DNA of 64,000 nt, taken from the NCBI GenBank assembly GCA_905178155.1, contig CAJINV010000002.1, positions 5,575,709-5,639,708 of the forward strand, given 5' to 3'. This DNA is from Amoebophrya sp. A120. Lineage: Eukaryota; Protista; Dinoflagellata. Of the stretch, positions 6,302 to 64,000 are shown one piece after another (position 1 is the first letter of the stretch; every line of letters begins with the position of its first letter). Below the pieces are notes generated by a model. It was not told the origin of the DNA and did no database searches. It saw only the letters and a list, made by a program, of their open reading frames with translations. The position numbers and the translations under genes were made by a program.

Positions 6302-8700
6302 TTACGTTGCCCCACCTGCTGAGTCCGGTCGTGGTCTGCGATCAGCGAACATGGATTTCTCGTTGGTACAGCAACAGCTGCAGTGATGAAGCATAAAGTT
6401 TCGACAACACAGGTCCAAATTGCACCATTTAGAGCTCCAACATTCTTGGCAACGACAACGAGTAATATGAAAGCATTTACAGACTTTTGTCGACGCACAA
6501 GCCCGCCGCATTGGACAGCAGACGAAACAAAATACGACTAAAAAGGTGACAACTGAGAGGATGATTATACAAATAACGAGTACTATGGGGTCAGTCACCA
6601 CAGGAAACCCGGACGGAAAATCGTATACATCAAATTCGGGTACATATTTTGCGTGGGCGAGGGAGTCAAGCAAATACGCCACAAGTAGTCCCCCTATAAC
6701 GAGCTTAAAAAAGAACCACCCACAAAACTCAATATAACCATTATCCTGATCCTTGTTCTCTCGCTGATCCATGGTCGGACATTATTCTGCAGAAAAGCGC
6801 CCCTCCCTTGCCGTATGCCAAATTATTTGTGGCGCGTCTGTAGTTGCTCTGTTGCTGAGCCAGACAGTGAGGTGGTTTGTGAGACTTAAAGTCGGGAAGA
6901 CCACAGCAATCATGCGACTGCTCCGAAGGAGAAAAACAATCTTCTGCTGGCAACACGAGATCAATCAACGCCTGACAAGTAATTTCGAATACCACATGCG
7001 GTGGAGTAGTACCCTGTTCTGCAGCATAGACAGCAAAGCATGAAGCAAATATCGCCAAAGAAGCATCTGCACCACCTGCCGCACTTCCCACCTGCTGCTA
7101 CCGCACCTGCACCCCCTGCAGCAACTGCACCACCTACTGCTGCTGCATTATTTTTCGAGTCTCCCATGCATTCCGTACAGCACCCGTCATACCGATCCTC
7201 TTGAAAAGCCGTCCATGTCATTATATGGCTCAGACTAGAGAGAACCCCAGCTGGCGTTTTTAGAAGTGCACACTACGTCTGCGGTAGACGTAAGTTTGGC
7301 TTTGCTTTTGCCGGGAAAAAGCCGCAATTACCTTTGTGAGGCTGCATCTTCATCACAGAGCCGGCCTCTGCCTCTCGCTGCCCTAGGGTTTTGGTTCTGC
7401 CGGGGCGATGAATTTCCACACATCATTGCCTAAGCCTCGTCTCTGGACCAGCTTCAACACAAGGACAAAGCACATTCAGCTCCTGCAAATTATGTCGAGT
7501 TTTGATTTTCATGACAAGTATGCCGGGACGGACAAAGACGCCATAAAGAGGATAATCTTTGCAGCAGTTCCCCTCGTTGCAGCAGTTCCGCTTGCCGCAG
7601 CAGTTACACTTTGCGCAGCATTCATCCAGCCACGCGCATTTGCAGCACTCCCCATTTCCTTCGTTGTTTTTTTGCACCGGCAGATCGCGTCGCGCCGGGG
7701 TAACTGGGCCTACGCGATTCTCCATCGGCGGTCGTTGTCCGGGCGGCACCGCAGCTCCTTCAGCCGCCGAATAATCCTCCCCCCAATCCGCCCAATCCTC
7801 GGCGCGCTGCATGGGAGTGTCAAAATTGAGACCGCCAAAGTTGATATAACTTGTAATGCAGAAAATGGATGAAAGTTGTGACCCAGTTTCTAAGTGGCGC
7901 ATGACAAATTTGGGTAGAACCGAGATCCAGTTTGTCATGCTGTTTGGGTAAGGCATACGCCTTTTGTCATGCTACTTTAGCAGCTCAGTTTCTACCCCTC
8001 AACAGGCTTACAGTCTGCCTCACTTGCCTCCTCTGCAAGACAGGCACTCTGCGGGCTGAATTTTACGCATGACAAACTATTTCAACTGTGACGATTTCAA
8101 TCCTGACGCTTCCATACGCTGCACGTACCTGTCAAAGTACTTCACTTCTTCACGTTTCACTTTCCCTTTCTCCTTCATTGTCTCGACCCAGTTCCAGAGG
8201 CCCTCTGGCACGCCCTCCAGTCCGTTTTCGCGAATCCAATTCGCCCATGCCACTAGCGTCCATTATCCAACATCAAAAAAGTTCGTCACAATCACGCATT
8301 GGTATTTTTGCAAAACGTCGGACATGCGTACTTAAGAATGCATGTTCACATTGCAGCTATGCGTAATCTGCTTCCGACTTGTGGTTGTACTAGTCGTGCT
8401 TCTGCAATACAAGAGAAAGCTGCTTTAGCAGAAAGAGGTCCTCTCGTGTCCGGCAAAAAACAAGTGTGACAAACACAAACTTTTTTCTTTTCATAAATAT
8501 CCCCTGTACTTCGGTTTGGGTCGCCGTTTCCTTTTCCCGCTGCTCCTCCGCTTATCCGGTCTCTTCTCGCGTCCCCCAGTTTTGGCCGGGAAAGATCGGT
8601 CCCCCATCTCCCCAAATAATTCAACCTTTCTTCATTGCAGTCTATGTCATCTGGGTCTCGATTTATTTGATGTGATGTCGTAGGACGTGCAGCACAGCAA
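6302..8700 (-). CDS. Spliced Cys-rich membrane protein (boundaries approximate; may belong to a larger gene)
   Basis: ORFs 6302-6772, 6961-7221 and 7423-7956 contain CC-rich tracts and hydrophobic TM segments; IE 7810-8116 removal joins KYFDRYVQ|RAEDWADW. Confidence 0.5.
7810..8116. mobile_element. IE family F intron (307 bp)
   Basis: Ends CATGGGAGTGTCAAAATTG / TTCAATCCTGACGCTTCCATA, like 51421-51827; DR CGCTG; in-frame join. Confidence 0.85.
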
Positions 8701-54258: not shown

Positions 54259-56175
54259 TTTCGTCACACGGCGCAACATTCAGCCCTGCTTCTTCAAGAA
54301 TCTTCGGTTGTACGTCGGATTTTCGGTCTTCATTTTGCTGTACTGAACATTCGACGACACACAACCCGTCGTGCTACTACTCGTTGTATATCTTTGGTCA
54401 ATAAATGCGGAAGTTCTAGATCAAAAAGGAAGACTACCTCGCGGCAATAACACGCACTCTTCGACACCAGATCACAGTCACTCTCCAGCACACAAATAAA
54501 ACGAGCACCTTTGCGGCAAACTAGCTCTCACGTCGACAAGCTCCGTCAGTCTTTGGAGTACTAACAGCGGTCATTACGCGTTGAGCATGCAGCTTTAAGG
54601 ACCTTGCTCGCGTCATCGCAGTTGCAAAAAAGGGCGGCACTAAAAAAGGCAGCGCGAAAAGACAGCGCAAAAGAGCAAACGCCGCCGTTTTCCAAATTTG
54701 GATACCACTACATATGGTTATGAGACTGAAAAAAACGAAGGAAACGCGATAAAAAGTCGAGGGGATATAGCTCTCAGCTTCTTTGCCTAGTTACGCTCGT
54801 CTCTCGCTGTGGCCTTGCTTCAGAAAAACGAATCGCTCCGCGAAAAGAATACGCAAAATCGTCGTGGCGTTAGAACAGCAAGACGAATCGCCGTGAAAAT
54901 AGACCAGGAAGACGATCTGTACAACTCTGAAATAATATCAACAATACTAGGAGGTGGATCCGGTAGTACGAAACGAAGTCCTTGCACTTCTTTCACGACC
55001 TTGCTTAGTTTCTGTTCTCAACAAGATAGAACAACGACGAAGATCAAAACAAACGGCGCACTTTTTGACGCACGTGTATTCTTTTGCGTTTTTCTAATAT
55101 GCGTTTCCCATATGTATTTTTTTGTGTTTTTCTCATATGTAATTTTTTTTCATATGTATTTTTTTTTTTGTGTTTTTGCAATTTGTGAAATATGTTAGCA
55201 AATTCCAACAGGTCCGACAAGATGTTCACACTGATCCTAAGCTTGCAATTTCGATAAAACTGCAACGCCCCTTTGACAGTTTCACTATCCTTCGTCTTTT
55301 CTCCGGATGATGAAGCTCTGAAGTCGTTTCTCTGATGAAGGCGCTGAAGCTACTTGATACCCGATAACTGAATTGATAAACTTTCATGGAACAATGTACA
55401 TTAAACTTTCGAAAAAAAGTATTGCTGCTGCTGTTGCTGTTTAAGAACCAAACTCGTACGAAGAAAAGAAAATTACTCAGTACAGATTCCCTAAAAAACC
55501 CGAACAAGAAAAACTTCAAAACCCATTAACAGATTGAACCGCATCGCCCCGCTCTGGTACCGCTGTGCCTGAAAGTGATGGATCATTTGGGTTGTTCGTA
55601 AGCAGGACAACTGCGTGAGTACACGACATAACAAATTACTTTCCACGAAGGCAAAAAACTAGCAGTCACAGCAATCACATCATAGCACTAGGTACGCTAC
55701 GAAAGATGGATCTTGTCAAGCAACGCTGCTAATAATGGGCGTTGTCAAGCACTGGGCACATGAAGGAGGCGCAAACTGTCTGCAGCACTCATATCCTTTG
55801 CTGATCAGTACTTAACGCCGTCACGTTTTCTCACTTTGAGGGAGCGAGTTCGACGAATTCGCGCACCGTGCGGCAACCGACCCCGGTAGTGCTAAGGGTC
55901 GGCCGCTCTTCTTAATACATCCCCTACGGTGCAAAGCACCTAATTGTACCGCGAGTGCTCAAGGAAAAATCCGAGAACTTGATTTGTCGCTAGCGCCTTT
56001 TTGGAACCACGCAGCATCATGCTTAGCGTCTCGCATGCCGCTCTCGCTCTACCCGTGGTCTTGCAGAAAAGCCATTAATCCAAAGCACGCTTTTGCTGCT
56101 GTGACTGCTAATCATGCGCAGAAACTGGGTATGTAAAGCAAGGTAGAAAAGTCACGGAGTACCAGTTCCAAAACA

Positions 56176-57693
56176 CTAGCGCTCTGCAGCAACGGCACCT
56201 ACTTCAGCAAGGGGAGCAAGGTGCGTGGCCAAATTCACGTTGTTCGCAGTCTCCGCAGTGCATATCAAGTGCAAATACGTCTGAGTCTGGATGAGTCAAC
56301 GTGTTTACCATGCAGATTCCGGATGCCCCGCCAGGTCTGGAATGCCGGGGATCATCATAGATTATGTAAGGACTTTGCAATGCACATTCCGCATGCGAAC
56401 TACCGTTTCAGCCTGGCCGAGCATGGGCATCTTGTGCTACCTCCGCAGGACAAATAATTTTTGCCAGATATACAGGACTCAGTCGCAAGGTTCAGACATA
56501 TTTGCAACGCATATCTTCGCTCAACTCGCCCGATACCTCGGTCATGTCCTCTAGATCCGATAGACTCTCAGTCTCAGCAGTCTCGGCCTCGCTCGCCTCG
56601 GCCTCGCTCGCCTCGTCACCCCAAACTAGTCTCCTCGCATGTTCCCCTTCGTGGTATTGATCCATATATCTAAGCCAGACCTCCAGGTCCACTTCCGGAT
56701 CGCTTTTTCCGGCAGCCTCCAACTCTTGTTTCCAAGTCTTGAAAGTCCGCCAGCCCTCGTCCGTATGATATGCCCACTGCTTAAATTCCGTATGCTGATC
56801 CGGAAAACGTGATTGGGAGGTAGACAATGCACTTGAAAATTTGTTAGTCAAGTGAAAATACGTCTGAGTCTGGATGAGTCCACGTGTTTGCCATGCAGAT
56901 TTTAAATGCCTCGCCAGGTCTGCAAAGCCGGGGATAGCAGTTACTTATCATTTTTGTAAGGACTTTGCAATGCATATTCCGCCTGAGACTTACCGCTTCA
57001 GCATGACCGAAAATGGGCATCCTGTGCTACCTCCGAAAGACAAACTTTTGCCCGATCTAGAGGACGCAGACACGAGTTCTAACCTTGAAGACCAAGACAT
57101 ATTTGCAGCGCATACTTTCCTGCGGGGTCACGGTCCTTTCCTTATAAACCAAGGCCTTCACGCGCCACAACCAGTTGAGTAGGCTCCACCAATCCCCGTT
57201 GTAATCTATGCAAGGAAAAAGCTTTCTCCGTCTCAAACCTTTGCAGACACAGCAGTCATGAGTTTGAGTGTGATGCGTCGGACACAAGAGAAAACAACAC
57301 GGATGAAAGCCGCCTTTCTTGCATGTGCAGCGTGACAAAGAAGTGTCTCAAGGATTGCCCGTATTACAAGTTGAGACTGAGACTGATTTTTCTCGTGATA
57401 TGATCCTCGTCATCGTCATCATCATCATCGTCAGATTTTTTGGAACCGCCAGATGCTGTACTCATCTTCCCGGTCTTCGATTTCCGGCTGGTTTTCGATT
57501 TTTTCCCGCTCTTCTTGGCTTCCACCTTGGTCGCTCCGCCTTTCTTCCGGTCATGCTGAATGAAACCCGTCGGAACCTCCTCGCTTCCCTCCCAGGAGTG
57601 TGTTGCTGTGCCGGCCTTCTTCTGCAAGGCGGACACGACCGGCCCCCCCCTCCCGGGGGCAGCAACGGCGACAAGCACGATCTTCTTCATCAT
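56176..57693 (-). CDS. Putative secreted protein, paralogue 1 (4 exons, 3 IE introns)
   Basis: MMKKIVLVAVAAPG signal-like start; exons 57693-57401, ~57206-57115, ~56840-56514 and ~56257-56176 join in frame after IE removal. Confidence 0.7.
56263..56513. mobile_element. IE A-like (251 bp), DR decayed
   Basis: TATCAAGTGCAAATACGTCTGAGTCTGGA...GACATATTTGCAACGCATA. Confidence 0.8.
56846..57114. mobile_element. IE A-like (~269 bp), DR decayed
   Basis: Same subfamily as 56263-56513. Confidence 0.78.
57207..57400. mobile_element. IE (194 bp)
   Basis: TATGCAAGGAAAAAG...GATTTTTCTCGTGATA; DR TAATC/TGATC. Confidence 0.85.
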
Positions 57694-58602
57694 TTTGGAG
57701 ATTCTACTAGTTGTATCGCTTTGACTTTGTCCTGCAAAGCAGCTTCTTTTCCGTTCCTGCCGGAGTAACTGTTTTTATGTGGGTAAAAAGGTCTACTACT
57801 CACTTGAGTTTCACTGAGAGAGTGGCTTCCACGAACCTCTCGCGCACAGAAAAAAAATCTTGGGAACTGCAGCAATTGATGTAGTCACTATTGATGCTGT
57901 CTTTTCAGAATAATGCCACACTTGCAACAGAACCCTAAGCAGGCACACTTAGCTATGTGAAATTCAATCGATAGTACTATGTATTCGAGAAAAGTTCCGG
58001 CGAGCGAGCTGCTTTTTGCACGGTGTGGTCGTGGGCATGGACGAAAGTAGCTGAAAACGACTGGCACGGACGATGACTTAACTACGACTTGGGAAGTCCT
58101 GCGAGGTAGCAACTTGTGCTGTCGTGGCTCCAGCACGGTGGGATCTATGGGGATTTCTGCACGTGGTACGGATAGATCCAGGGTGGAAGCGCGAAAGCGT
58201 GGCGCATATATATACGGAATGGCTGTGATTCTTTTTTACCACAACAAAAACGAACTTTCACTTTGTCTTTACTCCACGACCACGAATAAAAACGAAATAT
58301 ATTACAACGAATAGTATCTCTGAACAAGAACGATGTTGATCACGCAGTACTATACAAGGAGGAATTCCTTATATGAAATCTGTACAAATTACATGATAGC
58401 GTCCTTCTTTCCCATCTAATTTTCGGAGGTCGAGCCATTACTACGAAACGAAGTCCTTGTATTTCACGACGGTCCTATGTGTTTTTGTCTTCCCCTGGAT
58501 CGCAGCACAAGATAGAACAACGACGAAGATCAAAAAAAACGGCGCACTTTTTGATGCGCCTGTAGCCTTTTGCGTTTTTCTAATATGCCTTTCCCATGTG
58601 TA

Positions 58603-58732
58603 TTTTTTTGTGTTTTTCTCATATGTAATTTTTTTTGTTTTTTTCTCATATGTAATTTTTTTTGTTTTTTTCTCATATGTAATTTTTTTGTGTTTTTCTC
58701 ATATGTAATTTTTTTGTGTTTTTCTCATATGT
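58603..58732. repeat. Minisatellite, ~26-bp unit TTTTTG(T)GTTTTTCTCATATGTAA x5
   Basis: Direct reading; fewer copies in unit 1 near 55120-55160. Confidence 0.85.
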
Positions 58733-61138
58733 TGAAAACTAAAATCCCAAAGGGAAGTTTGAAAAAAAGCACTGTAGCATAGCGAACCGAGCATAATTGT
58801 GAAAGCACATCCTGTGAGGGGTTTTTTGGAAAATGAAGAAGGAAGCGACTACGTGAGTCCCTAGCTAGAAATGGGCGCGGCGCGAGTGTGGATACTTCTG
58901 CCCACGGGGTCCCACATGGCGGAAGCTGGAGCACTACGACCAAGTAGCGCTGCGCCCAGCCTACCACGTGGGTGCTCCCCTAGTTAGCATTTGGTCGATC
59001 GTTTTGCGCCCGTGGGTACCGGTTCACCGCAGAAACGAAATGCATAACTAGCGTATACCACGACCTAACTAAAAACTCTACTTGCCGGCTAGTCACGAAA
59101 ACAAACATACATAATATTTATACGCGTCAATACAGGTAAGTGAAAATAGGATGGAAGGAGCGTGATTATGATTTTCATGCGAAGAGCGGGGATCTGCAGC
59201 CATAAAGACCACGTCAAAAATTTCAAGAACGATCTCTCTATGTGTCGATGTGCTGACCATGCGCTTTTTCGGAACTCAGAATTTCAATTTTTCCGTACTC
59301 GAAAGCAATAGCATTTACCCAGAACTGGATCTGTAATGCGAAAATGAATCGAAATTGAACAGCTTCAAGATGATTGATGTGTTTCGAATCTAACGAACAG
59401 CCTGTGTTTTTCTCATATGTAATTTTTTTGCGTTTTTCCAATAGGTAAAATATGTTAGCAAATTCCAACAGGTCCGACAAGATGTTCACGCCGATCCTAA
59501 CATTGCAATTTGGATAAAACTGCAACGCCCCTGCTTTTACAGTTTATTCACTATCCTTCGTCTTTTCTCCGGACGGTGAAACCTCTGAAGTCGTTTCTTA
59601 CCTTTTACACTAAAGCTTTTATCTAGTGCACAGCAGTACTATTGAGCACGCGCTTCCTCAGTTGATGCTACGACGTACAATTATTGCAGCTCATGTTTCT
59701 TGGAGTCCAAGAGGCTGCTCGTTCTCAACAGCCGGAGGCGGAACGCATAAGCACATCCCGTGGGAGAGCTCTGCCGAAAACGCTAGTATAAAAGGTATGC
59801 ACTCCAAACCAACCAAAAAAAAGAAGAAGCTGCTAAAACATCTTGCTGCAAGGTTCTTGCATGAAGGACTGTGAAAATAATGCTATCACGGGTAGGCATT
59901 TCCATCCAAAACTGTTGTGTGTTACCTGCGACGCACGCAGGCCAGGTAAGAAAAAACGGATAGACCGCATTCGCTGCAGGCTATGCAGTTCTCCTCAGGG
60001 ATGAAAGATAAAGATTTAGCAGGTCCGTGACAGAGAGATGATGGGCAATAAAGTTATTATGATGCGAAACGATTTGAGTAATTATTTGTTTGCTTGACTT
60101 TGATTGTTGTCAAGCGGAACGTGAGAACGCGCGTGAAACGTCTTTTAATGCTAGTTGAAAAATCAAAAACAACAAACTCCGTTGCTGCGATAGAAATCGA
60201 TCAATGCAATTATTTTCTCTGACCTGTAGATGAATAAAATGGAGGCGCTGAAGCTACTTGATACCCGAGAACTAAATTGATAACCTGTTATGGAACAATG
60301 TGCATTAAACTGTCGAAAAGAAGTCTTGTTGCTGCTTTTGCTGTTTATTTAAGAACTAAACTCGTAGGAAAATGAAAAGAAAATAACTCAGTACAGATTT
60401 CCTAAACCCGAGAAAGAAAAACTTCAAAACCCGTTAACCCATTGAACCGCATCGCCCCGCTCTGGTGCGGCCGTGCGCGTGCCTGAAAGTGATGGATCAG
60501 TTGTTGAATTGGGTTATTCATAAGCAGAAGATAACATCATGAACAATTGAGTGAGTACACGACATAATAAATTTACTTTCCACAAAAGCAAAAAACTAGC
60601 AGTCACAGCAATCACAGCGTAGCACTAGGTACGCTGCGAAAGATGGATCCTATCAAGCAACGCTGCTAATGATGGGTGTTGTGAAGCACTGGGTTTGGGC
60701 ACATGAAGGAGGCGAAGCAAACTGTCTGTAGCACTCATGTCCAGGACGCGCTCACTGTTTCTTTGCTGCTCAATAACGCCGTCACGTTCTTCACTTTGAG
60801 GGGACGTTTTCGACGAATTCGCGCACCGCAGCGGCAACCGACCCCGGTAGTTCGAAGGGTCGGCCGCTCTGCTTATTACATCCCCCACGGTGAAAAGAAC
60901 CTAATCCCACGAGTGCTCAAGGACAAATCCAACAAGTTGATTTGTCGCTAGCTTCTCTTTGGGCCCACGCAGCATCATGCTTTAGCGTCTCGCATGCCGC
61001 TCTCGCTCTACCCGTGGCCTTGCAGAAAAGCCATTAATCCAAAGTAAGCACGCTTTTGCTGTTGTGACTGCTAATCATGCGCCGAAACTGAGTAAAGCAA
61101 GGTAGAAAAAGTCACGGAGTAGTACCAGTTCCAAAACA

Positions 61139-63489
61139 CTAGAAAGCTGCGGCAACGGCACCTTCAACAATGGGAGCAAGGTGCGTGGCCAAATTCACGT
61201 TGTTCACAGTGTCCGCAGTGCATATCAAGTGCAAATACGTCTGAGTCTGGATGAGTCAACGTGTTCACCATGCAGATTCTGGATGCCCCGCCAGGTCTGG
61301 AATGCCGGGGATTATCATAGCAGAGAATTTTATAAGGTTTCAGATTCAATACGAGGCGACCAATACGAGCAATCGGACCAATACGAACCCGATACGAGCG
61401 CGGGCGGCGGCTCCTGCCTCCCCCCGTCGCCGATACACCCTACCCGTGCTTCCGTTTGAAAATATGTGGCCCCACGCCTGATGCTGCGATCTTCATAGGG
61501 CCTTCCCCTCTATTAAGCTGACACAGTACGGGCGCGGGACATGATGCGCGGCCGGGTTCTCGTCCCCTCTGACGGGGACGACTAAATCTCGAGAGAGAGG
61601 CCCCCCTACCTCATCTAACTAAGCTTGTTACTAGCCTGCTGAGCCCAAGCATGGAACCAGCTCGGGCGCCGGTGAATAGCGGCGATTCTTGACTCTGTCC
61701 GGCCCCTGGAGCTCATGCGGCAAAGCATAAGAGTCAGGGGCGCGATAGCAGCAGCGCTGCTTTGCGGGCGTATTTGAAAGCAGTGACGTTGCCAACAAGC
61801 GTCGGCCCGCCAGTTCTCATTCAATTATTAGTTTTTGTTTACCAAAAGGAAAAGCCGCGCCGCAGGCGCGGCGCCGAGTTTTTTTCTCAAAGTGGCGCGG
61901 CTACTTACTTTCAAAAGTTTCAAAGCGGCGCTCAAAGCGGCGCGCCGTCGTTTTTCGCGACGCCGTCGCGGTATACCAACCAATTGGGGCGGGCGGCTGG
62001 GCGGACCATCTTGGGGGTCCTGGCGCCACGTCAATACGAGGCGACCAATGCGAGCAATGAGACCAATACGATTTCACTCGATTTCTGTGTCGGTCTAATA
62101 CGACTCGTATTGTTTATAAAATTCTCTGTCATAGATTTTGTAAGGACTTTGCAATGCATATTCCGCATGAAAATTACCGCTTCAGCATGGCCGAGAATGG
62201 GCATCTTGTGCTACGAACGCAGGACAAATAATTTTTGCCAGATATACAGGACTCAGTCGCAAGATTCAAACATATTTGCAACGCATATCTTCGCCCACCC
62301 CGCCCGATACCTCGGCCACGTCCTCTAGATCCGATAGACTCGTCTCAGACTCAGTCTCAGCAGTCTCGCTCCAAATAGCCTCGTCATCAGGGTACTTGTC
62401 CCGCATCCACCTAGCCTCGCGATCAGCTGTATCAGGGTGATTTTCCCGCAGCCACAACTGCCAGATCTTCCACCGCTCTTCCTCCACGCTGGCATCACGA
62501 GACAATGCTCCTTCTCTTCGCCAGCGCATGATAGCTTCTCTGCCATCTCCCCCCTGCCTGAATCTATGACATTCGTCAAACAGGTCGGGGTGTCTATGTT
62601 CCGCGAGTTCCAATTCACGTGCCAACTTGTTGTTCAATTCATTTGATATCCAAAGTGAAAATACGTCTGGGTCTGGATGAGTCCACGTGTTTACCATGCA
62701 GATTTTGGATGCCTCGCCAGGTCTGGATTGCCGGGGATAGTACTTATCATAGATTTTGTAAGGATTTTGCGAATGCATATTCCGCCTGAGACGTACCGCT
62801 TCAGCATGACCGAAAATGGGCGTCTCGTGCTACCTCCAAAGGACAAATTTTTCCCCGATCTACGGGACGAAGACACAAGTCGCAACCTTAAAGACCAAGA
62901 CATATTTGCAACGCATACTTTCGTGTCCGGGAAGCCAACCTGGGAGCGAGGATCGGATTTTTCTCCAGGCCCAACCCAGCAAGTTCCATGCTTGGTTCCA
63001 CCAATTATCCGCACCGTAATCTATGCAAGGAAAAAGCTTTCTCCGTCTCAAACCTTTGCAGACACAGCAGTCATGAGTTTGAGTGAAGTGTGATGCGTCA
63101 GACACAAGAGAAAACAACACGGATGAAAGCCGCCTTTCTTGCATGTGCAGCGTGACAAAGAAGTGTCTCAAGGAGCGCCCGCATTACAAGTTGAGACTGA
63201 GACAGATTTTTCTCGTGATATGATCCTCGTCAGATTTGTTGGAACCGCCAGATGTTGTACTCATCTTCCCGGTCTTCGATTTGCGGCTGGTTTTCGATTT
63301 TTTCCCGCTTTTCTTGGCCTCCACCTTTGTCGCTCCGCCTTTCTTCCGGTCATGCTGAATGAAACCGGTCGGCACCTCCTCGCTTCCCTCCCAGGAGTGT
63401 GTTGCTGTGCCGGCCTTCTTCTGCAGGGCGGACACGACCGCCCCCCCCCCGGGGGCAGCAAAGGCGATCAGCGCGATCTTCTTCATCAT
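61139..63489 (-). CDS. Putative secreted protein, paralogue 2 (4 exons, 3 IE introns)
   Basis: MMKKIALIAFAAPG; same intron positions (61223-62287, 62647-62917, 63022-63220) as paralogue 1. Confidence 0.7.
61223..62287. mobile_element. IE A-like intron, 251 bp plus nested 808-bp element and 6-bp TSD
   Basis: Paralogous to 56263-56513; 1065-814 = 251. Confidence 0.85.
61321..62128. mobile_element. 808-bp non-autonomous TIR element (MITE-like)
   Basis: Perfect 15-bp TIR CAGAGAATTTTATAA; 6-bp TSD TCATAG; empty site at ~56355-56360. Confidence 0.92.
62647..62917. mobile_element. IE A-like (271 bp)
   Basis: Paralogue of 56846-57114. Confidence 0.8.
63022..63220. mobile_element. IE (199 bp)
   Basis: Paralogue of 57207-57400; DR TAATC/TGATC. 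Confidence 0.85.
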
Positions 63490-64000
63490 TTTGGCGGTTC
63501 TACTAGTATCGTTTTTACTTTGTCCTGCAAAGCAGCTCCTTTTCCGTTCCTGCCGGAAGAACTGTTTTTGTGTCGGTAAAAAGGTCTACTACTTACTTGA
63601 GTTTCACTGAGTGGCTTCCATGAGCCTCTCGCACACAGAAAAAAAATCTTGGGAACTGCAGCTATTGATGCTGTCTTTTCATCAGGGTAATATTCGAGAA
63701 AAGTTCAGGCAAGCGAGCTGCTTTTTGCACGGTGTGGTCGTGAGCATGAACGAAAGTAGCTGAAAACGACCGGAACGGACGATGACTTCACTACGACTTG
63801 GGGAGTCCTGCGAGGTAACGACTTGTGCTGTCGTGGCTCCAGCACGGTGGGATCCATGGGGATTTCTGCACGTGGTACGGATAGATACAGGGTGGCCGCG
63901 CGAAAGCGTGGCACATATATATACGGACTGGTTGTAATTCTTTTTTACCACAACAGACCACGAATAAAAACGAATACAACGAATAATATCTCTGAACAAG

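What the first reader, a model, noticed from the sequence alone, without database searches (positions are those of the whole stretch)
56176..63489. Tandem secreted paralogues: hypervariable exons bracketed by conserved IE introns
Seen: exon 1, exon 4, all three introns and intergenic DNA align closely between the units. Exon 2 (DYNGDWWSLLNWLWRVKALVYKERTVTPQE vs DYGADNWWNQAWNLLGWAWRKIRSSLPGWLPGHE) and most of exon 3 (FSSALSTSQSRFPDQHTEFKQWAY... vs ELNNKLARELELAEHRHPDLFDEC...) are barely alignable and differ in length, yet stay open and Trp-rich. Divergence begins within a few bases of the IE ends. Inference: either extreme diversifying selection (conotoxin- or effector-like), or cassette exchange of exons by recombination or gene conversion using the repeated IEs as homology arms. 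The latter would be a candidate introner-assisted diversification system for host-interaction proteins.
Basis: partly seen in the sequence, partly recalled or inferred. Interest (0 to 1): 0.85.

Follow-up and report, generated by a model that had tools for sequence, protein, structure and literature searches.

The report
Old exons between young introner introns
Two neighbouring, spliced copies of a likely secreted protein gene in an algal parasite have near-identical transposon-made introns but deeply different middle exons, likely because recombination kept the introns alike while selection preserved two old versions of the protein's variable domain.

Summary
Two tandem genes (A 57693-56176, B 63489-61139, minus strand) are spliced in RNA-type contigs: all three introner (IE) introns in A, two in B directly and the third by inference. 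Introns and flanks are 90-97.5% identical. Exon 2 and the first three quarters of exon 3 are about 30% identical as protein, yet homologous. Their synonymous sites look deeply diverged (10 of 25 shared residues keep the codon), which fits old versions of the domain better than a burst of selection on a young duplicate; the burst is disfavoured, not excluded. Cassette exchange through dispersed IEs found no support: no donor copy of A's exons, no intron-2/intron-3 chimera, and one of four borders lies inside an exon. Best reading: two anciently diverged versions of a variable domain, with introns and flanks homogenised by ordinary homologous recombination, the IEs serving as homology islands. 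New here: the first ~45 residues (signal-like stretch plus THxWxGSExxPxGF) are shared with four Amoebophrya A120 proteins with unrelated C-termini, a candidate effector-like family. The conserved-intron, divergent-exon pattern is known from venom genes; an active IE role is untested.

The parts
57401..57693 (-). Gene A exon 1 (coding part): signal-like stretch, conserved THxWxGSExxPxGF leader motif, Lys-rich and acidic linker
   Evidence: spliced contigs
57202..57400 (-). Gene A intron 1, IE family Y, 199 nt, 5-bp flank repeat 4 of 5 kept
   Evidence: joint 57201|57401 in X3, X6, X4, X5
57116..57201 (-). Gene A exon 2, variable, Trp-rich, 86 nt
56842..57115 (-). Gene A intron 2, IE family X, 274 nt, flank repeat 2 of 5; 90% identical to B intron 2 although both neighbouring exon parts are deeply diverged
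   Evidence: joint 56841|57116
56588..56841 (-). Gene A exon 3, variable part; predicted five-helix bundle
56515..56587 (-). Gene A exon 3, conserved acidic tail (90% identical to B)
56259..56514 (-). Gene A intron 3, IE family X, 256 nt, flank repeat 0 of 5, ends AT..CA
   Evidence: joint 56258|56515
56176..56258 (-). Gene A exon 4 to the stop codon; protein 262 aa
55568..56161 (-). Gene A 3'UTR intron
   Evidence: loose end at 56162 in X4 and X5 whose letters are window 55540-55567
63221..63489 (-). Gene B exon 1 (coding part), 95% identical to A
63017..63220 (-). Gene B intron 1, IE family Y, 204 nt
   Evidence: joint 63016|63221 in X3
62919..63016 (-). Gene B exon 2, variable, Trp-rich, predicted amphipathic helix
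   Evidence: hydrophobic moment p=0.009 against shuffles; A exon 2 p=0.38
62643..62918 (-). Gene B intron 2, IE family X, 276 nt
   Evidence: joint 62642|62919 in X3
62289..62642 (-). Gene B exon 3 (variable to about 62371, then the conserved tail); predicted helical bundle
61219..62288 (-). Gene B intron 3, IE family X, 1070 nt with a nested insertion; splicing inferred in X4 and X5, read into in X3
   Evidence: 633-nt contig = 138+98+354+43; joint depth 80.8 = 58+22.8; record 7
61321..62128 (.). 808-bp MITE-like element nested in B intron 3: perfect 15-bp terminal inverted repeat, 6-bp flank repeat
61139..61218 (-). Gene B exon 4 to the stop codon; protein 266 aa if intron 3 is spliced
60482..61124 (-). 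Gene B 3'UTR intron, GT-AG type
   Evidence: joint 60481|61125 in X3

Best explanation
A and B are two spliced tandem copies of a likely secreted, leader-plus-payload protein whose variable payloads are likely two anciently diverged versions kept apart by selection, while introns and flanks were likely kept alike by ordinary homologous recombination. Shown: the exon structure and splicing, the mosaic of identity, homology of the variable exons, the shared leader. Inferred: (1) the payload (exon 2 plus the five-helix part of exon 3) has been under long-term diversifying or balancing selection, probably through contact with the algal host; (2) everything else was exchanged between versions, most simply between alleles before an unequal crossover placed two old alleles in tandem at about 7% neutral divergence, or by conversion between the copies afterwards; (3) the IE introns are passive but consequential: 200-270 bp of unselected homology whose exchange stops where the exons stop matching, giving sharp borders at intron ends, and intron 2 would let exon 2 and exon 3 versions reassort because splice phases match (2,1,1) and splice sites follow the hairpin, not the flanking exon letters.
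For: Splicing and phases. Non-coding segments differ by 2.5-9.7% with mild heterogeneity (chi-square p=0.027; p=0.33 without intron 1). In the variable region dN is about 0.8 and dS about 2-3 as point estimates; 10 of 25 shared non-Met/Trp residues keep the codon against 9.2 expected at saturation and 71 of 79 in exon 1; among well-anchored shared residues 1 of 7 (simulated P of 0.02 or less for dS 0.07-0.14; a post-hoc statistic). Variable exons are homologous with helices in register (both models used the same two-row alignment). Introns 2 and 3 are a private, aged-looking IE pair: 63-65% to the family plurality, flank repeats 2 of 5 and 0 of 5, against 4-5 of 5 in 29 of 34 other elements. 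Splice sites sit about 1 nt before and 4 nt after the inverted repeat even with no flank repeat. Divergence peaks under conversion are described in PMC2588116 (passages); sexual spores in Amoebophrya in 10.1101/2025.04.10.648098 (abstract).
Against: No converted tract is visible: longest identical runs are not longer than chance in 8 of 8 conserved segments (p 0.09-0.96), which argues against ongoing conversion between the copies. Over all shared residues, simulation does not reject a young duplicate with omega 5-20 (P=0.06-0.08). The age of intron 2 (about 0.22-0.26 changes per site from its nearest window relative) only just allows it to predate exons with dS near 1 or more; if it is younger it had to be copied across non-matching flanks, which this model does not explain. 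Only two sequences from one strain were compared; no population data. Secretion and host contact are untested.
Confidence: 0.55

Rival explanations
1. A young tandem duplicate (about 7% neutral divergence) whose payload exons then changed by extreme positive selection, possibly with local hypermutation, as argued for venom genes; the IEs play no part.
For: Even spread of differences in conserved parts, no conversion tracts. Simulation over all shared residues gives P=0.06-0.08 for dS 0.07-0.14 with omega 5-20. The exon 3 tail and exon 4 also lean non-synonymous (dN 0.10 against dS 0; 0.15 against 0.08; small counts). Precedent: snake PLA2 introns more conserved than exons (PMC7285919, passages). 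It needs no copying of intron 2.
Against: Best-anchored shared residues use different codons at 6 of 7, three with two changes in the codon. It needs about one change per non-synonymous site over some 115 codons, plus indels, in the time neutral sites took 0.07. Second codon positions are the most conserved (0.52 against 0.42, protein-guided alignment so biased).
Confidence: 0.22
2. One reading: exons are exchanged as cassettes by ectopic recombination between dispersed IE copies that act as homology arms, an introner-assisted diversification system.
For: 3 of 4 borders at IE ends; matching phases; flank repeats of introns 2 and 3 broken (2 of 5, 0 of 5; Fisher p=0.01 against window elements), as chimeric IEs would be; the family fuses one leader to unrelated payloads.
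Against: The interiors of introns 2 and 3 have close relatives only at this locus by depth and are 48-69% identical to the 14 other window copies. 18 of 18 informative sites group introns by position, none by gene. Exons at the same position are homologous, not foreign. The fourth border is inside exon 3.
Confidence: 0.13
3. Assembly or annotation artefact: collapsed or chimeric haplotypes, or non-coding open frames.
For: The DNA runs may be the source of the window; no homologue of the payloads was found.
Against: Separate contigs carry each copy at similar depth in DNA-type runs, and spliced contigs of both genes stand in a second study; open frames are rare in shuffles.
Confidence: 0.03

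Closest known systems
Amoebophrya A120 introner elements (Farhat et al. 2021, PMC7789003; sections 10 and 11 and passages read)
   Same: About 200-275 nt non-canonical introns, inverted repeats starting TAT, 5-bp flank repeats, repeated families.
   Different: Introns 2 and 3 have lost the flank repeat yet splice at the same offset from the hairpin; the passages read do not discuss IEs between hypervariable exons.
Divergence peak in duplicates under gene conversion (Teshima and Innan model, as applied in PMC2588116; passages read)
   Same: Local deep divergence in coding sequence inside an otherwise similar duplicated block.
   Different: Divergence here is far deeper (about 30% protein identity), is split by an internal homogeneous IE intron, and no conversion tract was detected.
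Venom multigene families: snake PLA2 and three-finger toxins with ASSET segment switches (PMC7285919; passages read); conotoxins (recalled)
   Same: Conserved signal region and introns, divergent mature-region exons, abrupt segment switches.
   Different: No cysteine framework (0 and 1 Cys in the variable region); dN does not exceed dS as a point estimate; introns are transposon-derived.
Oomycete Crinkler effectors (PMC5289972; passages read)
   Same: Conserved N-terminal leader ending in a motif, joined to unrelated C-terminal payloads; a role for transposons in shuffling has been hypothesised (helitrons).
   Different: No sequence relation (no such Pfam match); leader about 45 aa rather than about 130; translocation untested.
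MHC alleles with old exon polymorphism and homogenised introns (recalled; the one paper checked, PMC4369332, did not state it)
   Same: Old coding variants flanked by young introns through allelic recombination.
   Different: Here inferred from two paralogues in one genome, with no allele data.
Amoebophrya sp. A120 proteins CAD7971588.1, CAD7950317.1, CAD7967545.1, CAD7943297.1 (unnamed)
   Same: Leader with 12 invariant columns across 6 sequences; E 5e-8 to 5e-6 for three, 1.5e-6 for the fourth by profile.
   Different: Post-leader regions unrelated to each other (6 of 6 pairs p>0.06) and scoring only 14-31 against the window's exons 2 and 3: Cys-rich, Pro/Glu-repeat or coiled-coil-like.

Membership tests
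Amoebophrya introner element (introns 1-3) | Terminal inverted repeat of 8-20 nt beginning TAT | tested here: met
   9-13 of 18 positions pair, degraded relative to the 14-18 of the scanned set; folding pairs the ends in 3 of 5 introns folded
Amoebophrya introner element (introns 1-3) | 3-5 nt direct repeat at the exon/intron boundary, intron 1 | tested here: met
   4 of 5 in both genes
Amoebophrya introner element (introns 1-3) | 3-5 nt direct repeat at the exon/intron boundary, introns 2 and 3 | tested here: not met
   2 of 5 and 0 of 5: IE-derived, not intact insertions
Amoebophrya introner element (introns 1-3) | Repeated family, spliced out in RNA | tested here: met
   14 other family-X copies in the window, one family-Y copy; joints
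Venom-type accelerated exon evolution | Introns and signal region more conserved than mature-region exons | tested here: met
Venom-type accelerated exon evolution | dN close to or above dS in the variable exons | tested here: inconclusive
   point estimates dN 0.73-0.95, dS 2-3 under four alignments; simulation leaves high omega open at P=0.06-0.08
Conotoxin-like | Conserved cysteine framework in the mature region (recalled feature) | tested here: not met
   0 and 1 Cys
Divergence peak under gene conversion | Local peak of divergence in a duplicated block | tested here: met
Divergence peak under gene conversion | Conversion tracts or shared derived sites between paralogues against an outgroup | tested here: inconclusive
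   no excess identical runs; mild heterogeneity; no outgroup available
Crinkler-like modular effector | Conserved leader joined to diverse payloads | tested here: met
   (analogy only)
Crinkler-like modular effector | LxLFLAK and HVLVxxP motifs | tested here: not met
   absent from the translations; no such Pfam hit
Crinkler-like modular effector | Secretion and delivery into the host | not testable with these tools
   hydropathy only (9-residue maxima 2.7 and 2.4)
IE-mediated cassette exchange (proposed) | Donor cassettes elsewhere in the genome | tested here: inconclusive
   none at 80% or more for A's exons in X1 and X2; B's exons and other strains not tested
IE-mediated cassette exchange (proposed) | Chimeric intron 2/intron 3 elements | tested here: not met
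   18 of 18 informative sites by position
Harmonin-homology five-helix domain (exon 3) | Structural match above background | tested here: inconclusive
   B model Z 6.2, rmsd 3.0, 73 aligned to 2kbq; not among the 50 rows for the A model (best Z 5.4); Foldseek none at E<=0.001

The most novel reading that the evidence does not exclude
Introner insertions cut a non-recombining hypervariable effector domain into modules and supply the only homology between them, so that crossovers inside IE introns reassort exon 2 and exon 3 versions among alleles and copies, and swap payloads behind a shared secretion leader: transposon-made introns as working recombination joints of a host-range gene family in a bloom-controlling parasite.
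Probability: 0.22. Interest if true: 0.82.

Novelty: new variant of a known kind. Interest (0 to 1): 0.52.

Why it matters
Whether introner invasions ever help their hosts, and whether new introns promote exon shuffling, are open questions with few concrete loci. This locus has a 270-bp IE that is 90% identical between two genes whose adjoining exons look synonymously saturated, so the question can be tested directly by resequencing strains. Separately, Amoebophrya host specificity lacks candidate effectors (PMC6176090 found only ROP14 among apicomplexan rhoptry proteins; passages), and the shared leader gives a handle to list a family of likely secreted proteins.

Tried and rejected
No whole genome was held, so family size rests on contig depth, which the tool says is no copy number. 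Exon 1 against longer proteins: none at E<=0.01; leader profile against proteins over 285 aa: none, both weak evidence. Pfam on five exon peptides: nothing at a curated cut-off. Metagenome contigs: no related locus; the pattern had a wrong spacer length, so its blank says nothing. Raw RNA runs X8 and X10 did not cover the genes: no evidence either way on strains or stage. The ESM Atlas gave no answer. Fold searches gave only background-level helical matches. The naive binomial test of codon saturation (P=1.5e-8) was set aside as overconfident after simulation. Intragenic duplication as the origin of introns 2 and 3: 2 of 5 local comparisons nominal (p=0.017, 0.046), not surviving correction; left open. 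The four named relatives are not in the 10 supplementary files of PMC6176090 held as text. No earlier scan notes were found. Literature searches (listings and starts of abstracts only, except the papers cited) showed no title on this family or on IE-mediated exon exchange in Amoebophrya; Roy et al. 2023 (Curr Biol) was seen only as a reference and the supplements of PMC7789003 were not read, and either may bear on this.
Full report
Setting. The window is full of 170-410 nt elements with terminal inverted repeats starting TAT and 5-bp flank repeats (37 found). This matches the introner elements (IEs) described for Amoebophrya A120 (PMC7789003, sections 10-11), and the only protein relatives found are A120 records. 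The organism is therefore inferred to be A120 or close to it. No whole genome was available.

Anatomy. Two head-to-tail units lie on the minus strand. Contigs of RNA-type runs give the joints: A 57201|57401, 56841|57116 and 56258|56515 in X3, X6, X4 and X5; B 63016|63221 and 62642|62919 in X3. These runs are one study and their RNA status is the tool's guess, but the joints are absent from the DNA-type runs X1 and X2. B's intron 3 is 1070 nt because of a nested 808-bp element. Its splicing is inferred in X4 and X5 from a 633-nt contig (138+98+354+43) and a summed joint depth; in X3 the contig reads into it. The frames give 262 and 266 aa with intron phases 2,1,1 in both. Both genes have a 3'UTR intron. 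Splice sites sit about 1 nt before and 4 nt after the inverted repeat, also in intron 3, which has no flank repeat and ends AT..CA.

The mosaic. Upstream DNA, exon 1, all introns, the last 73-82 nt of exon 3, exon 4 and the UTR intron are 89-97.5% identical; exon 2 and the rest of exon 3 barely beat shuffles as DNA. As protein the variable part is 30% identical and homologous: global z 3.7 and 3.5, summed score above all 1000 codon shuffles. AlphaFold gives each exon 3 five helices in register (mean pLDDT 67 and 73; same two-row alignment, so not independent), with no clear structural relative. Three borders sit at IE ends; the fourth lies in a repetitive acidic stretch inside exon 3.

How old are the variable exons? 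Shared residues keep their codon at 71 of 79 in exon 1, 18 of 18 in the exon 3 tail, 18 of 19 in exon 4, but 10 of 25 in the variable region, where saturation predicts 9.2. Simulation with indels and realignment tempers this: a young duplicate with omega 5-20 gives the observed fraction (11 of 25 when the exons are aligned separately) with P=0.06-0.08, while dS of 0.8 or more fits best. Restricting to residues anchored by neighbouring identities, a choice made after seeing the data, 1 of 7 keeps the codon, P of 0.02 or less for the young case; simulated sets were filtered at n of 8 or more. The balance favours old payloads with young surroundings.

What the IEs say. Introns 2 and 3 form a private clade (99/98) within family X; A and B copies pair by position (98/95, 99/97), and 18 of 18 informative sites agree. 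There has been no exchange between introns 2 and 3 since A and B separated. They are 81-85% identical to each other and 63-65% to the family plurality. Their flank repeats are broken (2 of 5, 0 of 5), whereas 29 of 34 non-nested window elements keep 4-5 of 5 (3 nested hits dropped from 37). In X1 and X2, A's variable exons are at single-copy depth (43-48 and 25-29) and the intron interiors at two to four times that, so no donor at 80% or more is seen. Intron 2 differs by 9.7%, more than intron 1 (2.5%, p=0.002) but not clearly more than the other non-coding segments (p=0.09). No segment shows an unusually long identical tract. The unsolved point is intron 2: young-looking between A and B, yet set between exons that look old. 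It may predate their divergence and have been exchanged since; the dates allow this narrowly.

The protein family. A full HMMER scan with the first 60 residues found 7 proteins at E<=0.001; the best 3 match the whole leader and are A120 proteins; the other 4 are long proteins with partial, repeated matches and were not followed. A profile added a fourth. Twelve columns are invariant: M.KK and THxWxGSExxPxGF. After the leader the four are unrelated. Loose ends in X4 and X5 show one more expressed relative matching only this motif (hand translation). This is a leader-plus-payload family, like Crinklers in design (PMC5289972) but unrelated in sequence. Secretion is inferred from hydropathy and this architecture alone.

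Mechanism and verdict. Most likely (0.55) the payload has two old versions held by selection, and the unselected sequence around and between them, including the IE introns, was exchanged by homologous recombination; the even 7% divergence without tracts favours capture of two alleles by one duplication over continuing conversion. A young duplicate under extreme selection (0.22) and ectopic IE cassette exchange (0.13) are the rivals. The pattern of conserved introns and divergent exons is known from venom genes (PMC7285919) and from conversion theory (PMC2588116). What is new is that the homology islands are introner-derived, that one splits the variable domain, and the leader family itself. 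I rate it a new variant of a known kind, interest 0.52.

Noticed in passing
window 61321-62128: 808-bp MITE-like element with perfect 15-bp terminal inverted repeats, a 6-bp flank repeat and subterminal CAATACGA repeats, nested in an IE intron that still appears to be spliced; no other copy in the window.
   Followed up: partly
window 57510-57770 and 58338-58505: B-type exon 1 contigs have 1.3-2.3 times single-copy depth in DNA-type runs and a third variant of the spacer appears in X3: a hint of a further B-like promoter and leader copy, perhaps beyond base 64000.
   Followed up: no
window 57544-57600: Contigs in X4 and X5 match only the leader motif and then diverge on both sides: another expressed family member.
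   Followed up: partly
window 56259-56514 and 61219-62288: Intron 3 is spliced with non-canonical ends and no flank repeat, at the same offset from the hairpin as intact IEs: the direct repeat is not needed for splicing here.
   Followed up: partly
window 58570-59400 and 59600-60220: Two insertions in the spacer between the units; the first is very deep in all runs (a high-copy repeat) beside a 26-27 bp tandem repeat; the second has inverted arms at 59599-59619 and 59777-59797.
   Followed up: no
window 9861-10409, 10397-10873, 11408-11607: An inverted 200-bp duplicate (88%) overlapping short open frames, one with a signal-like stretch and S/A-F-L-E motifs; such motifs recall apicomplexan rhoptry-protein processing sites (recalled, not checked).
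   Followed up: no
window 6783-7028, 16097-16407: IEs with a second inverted-repeat pair inside them.
   Followed up: no
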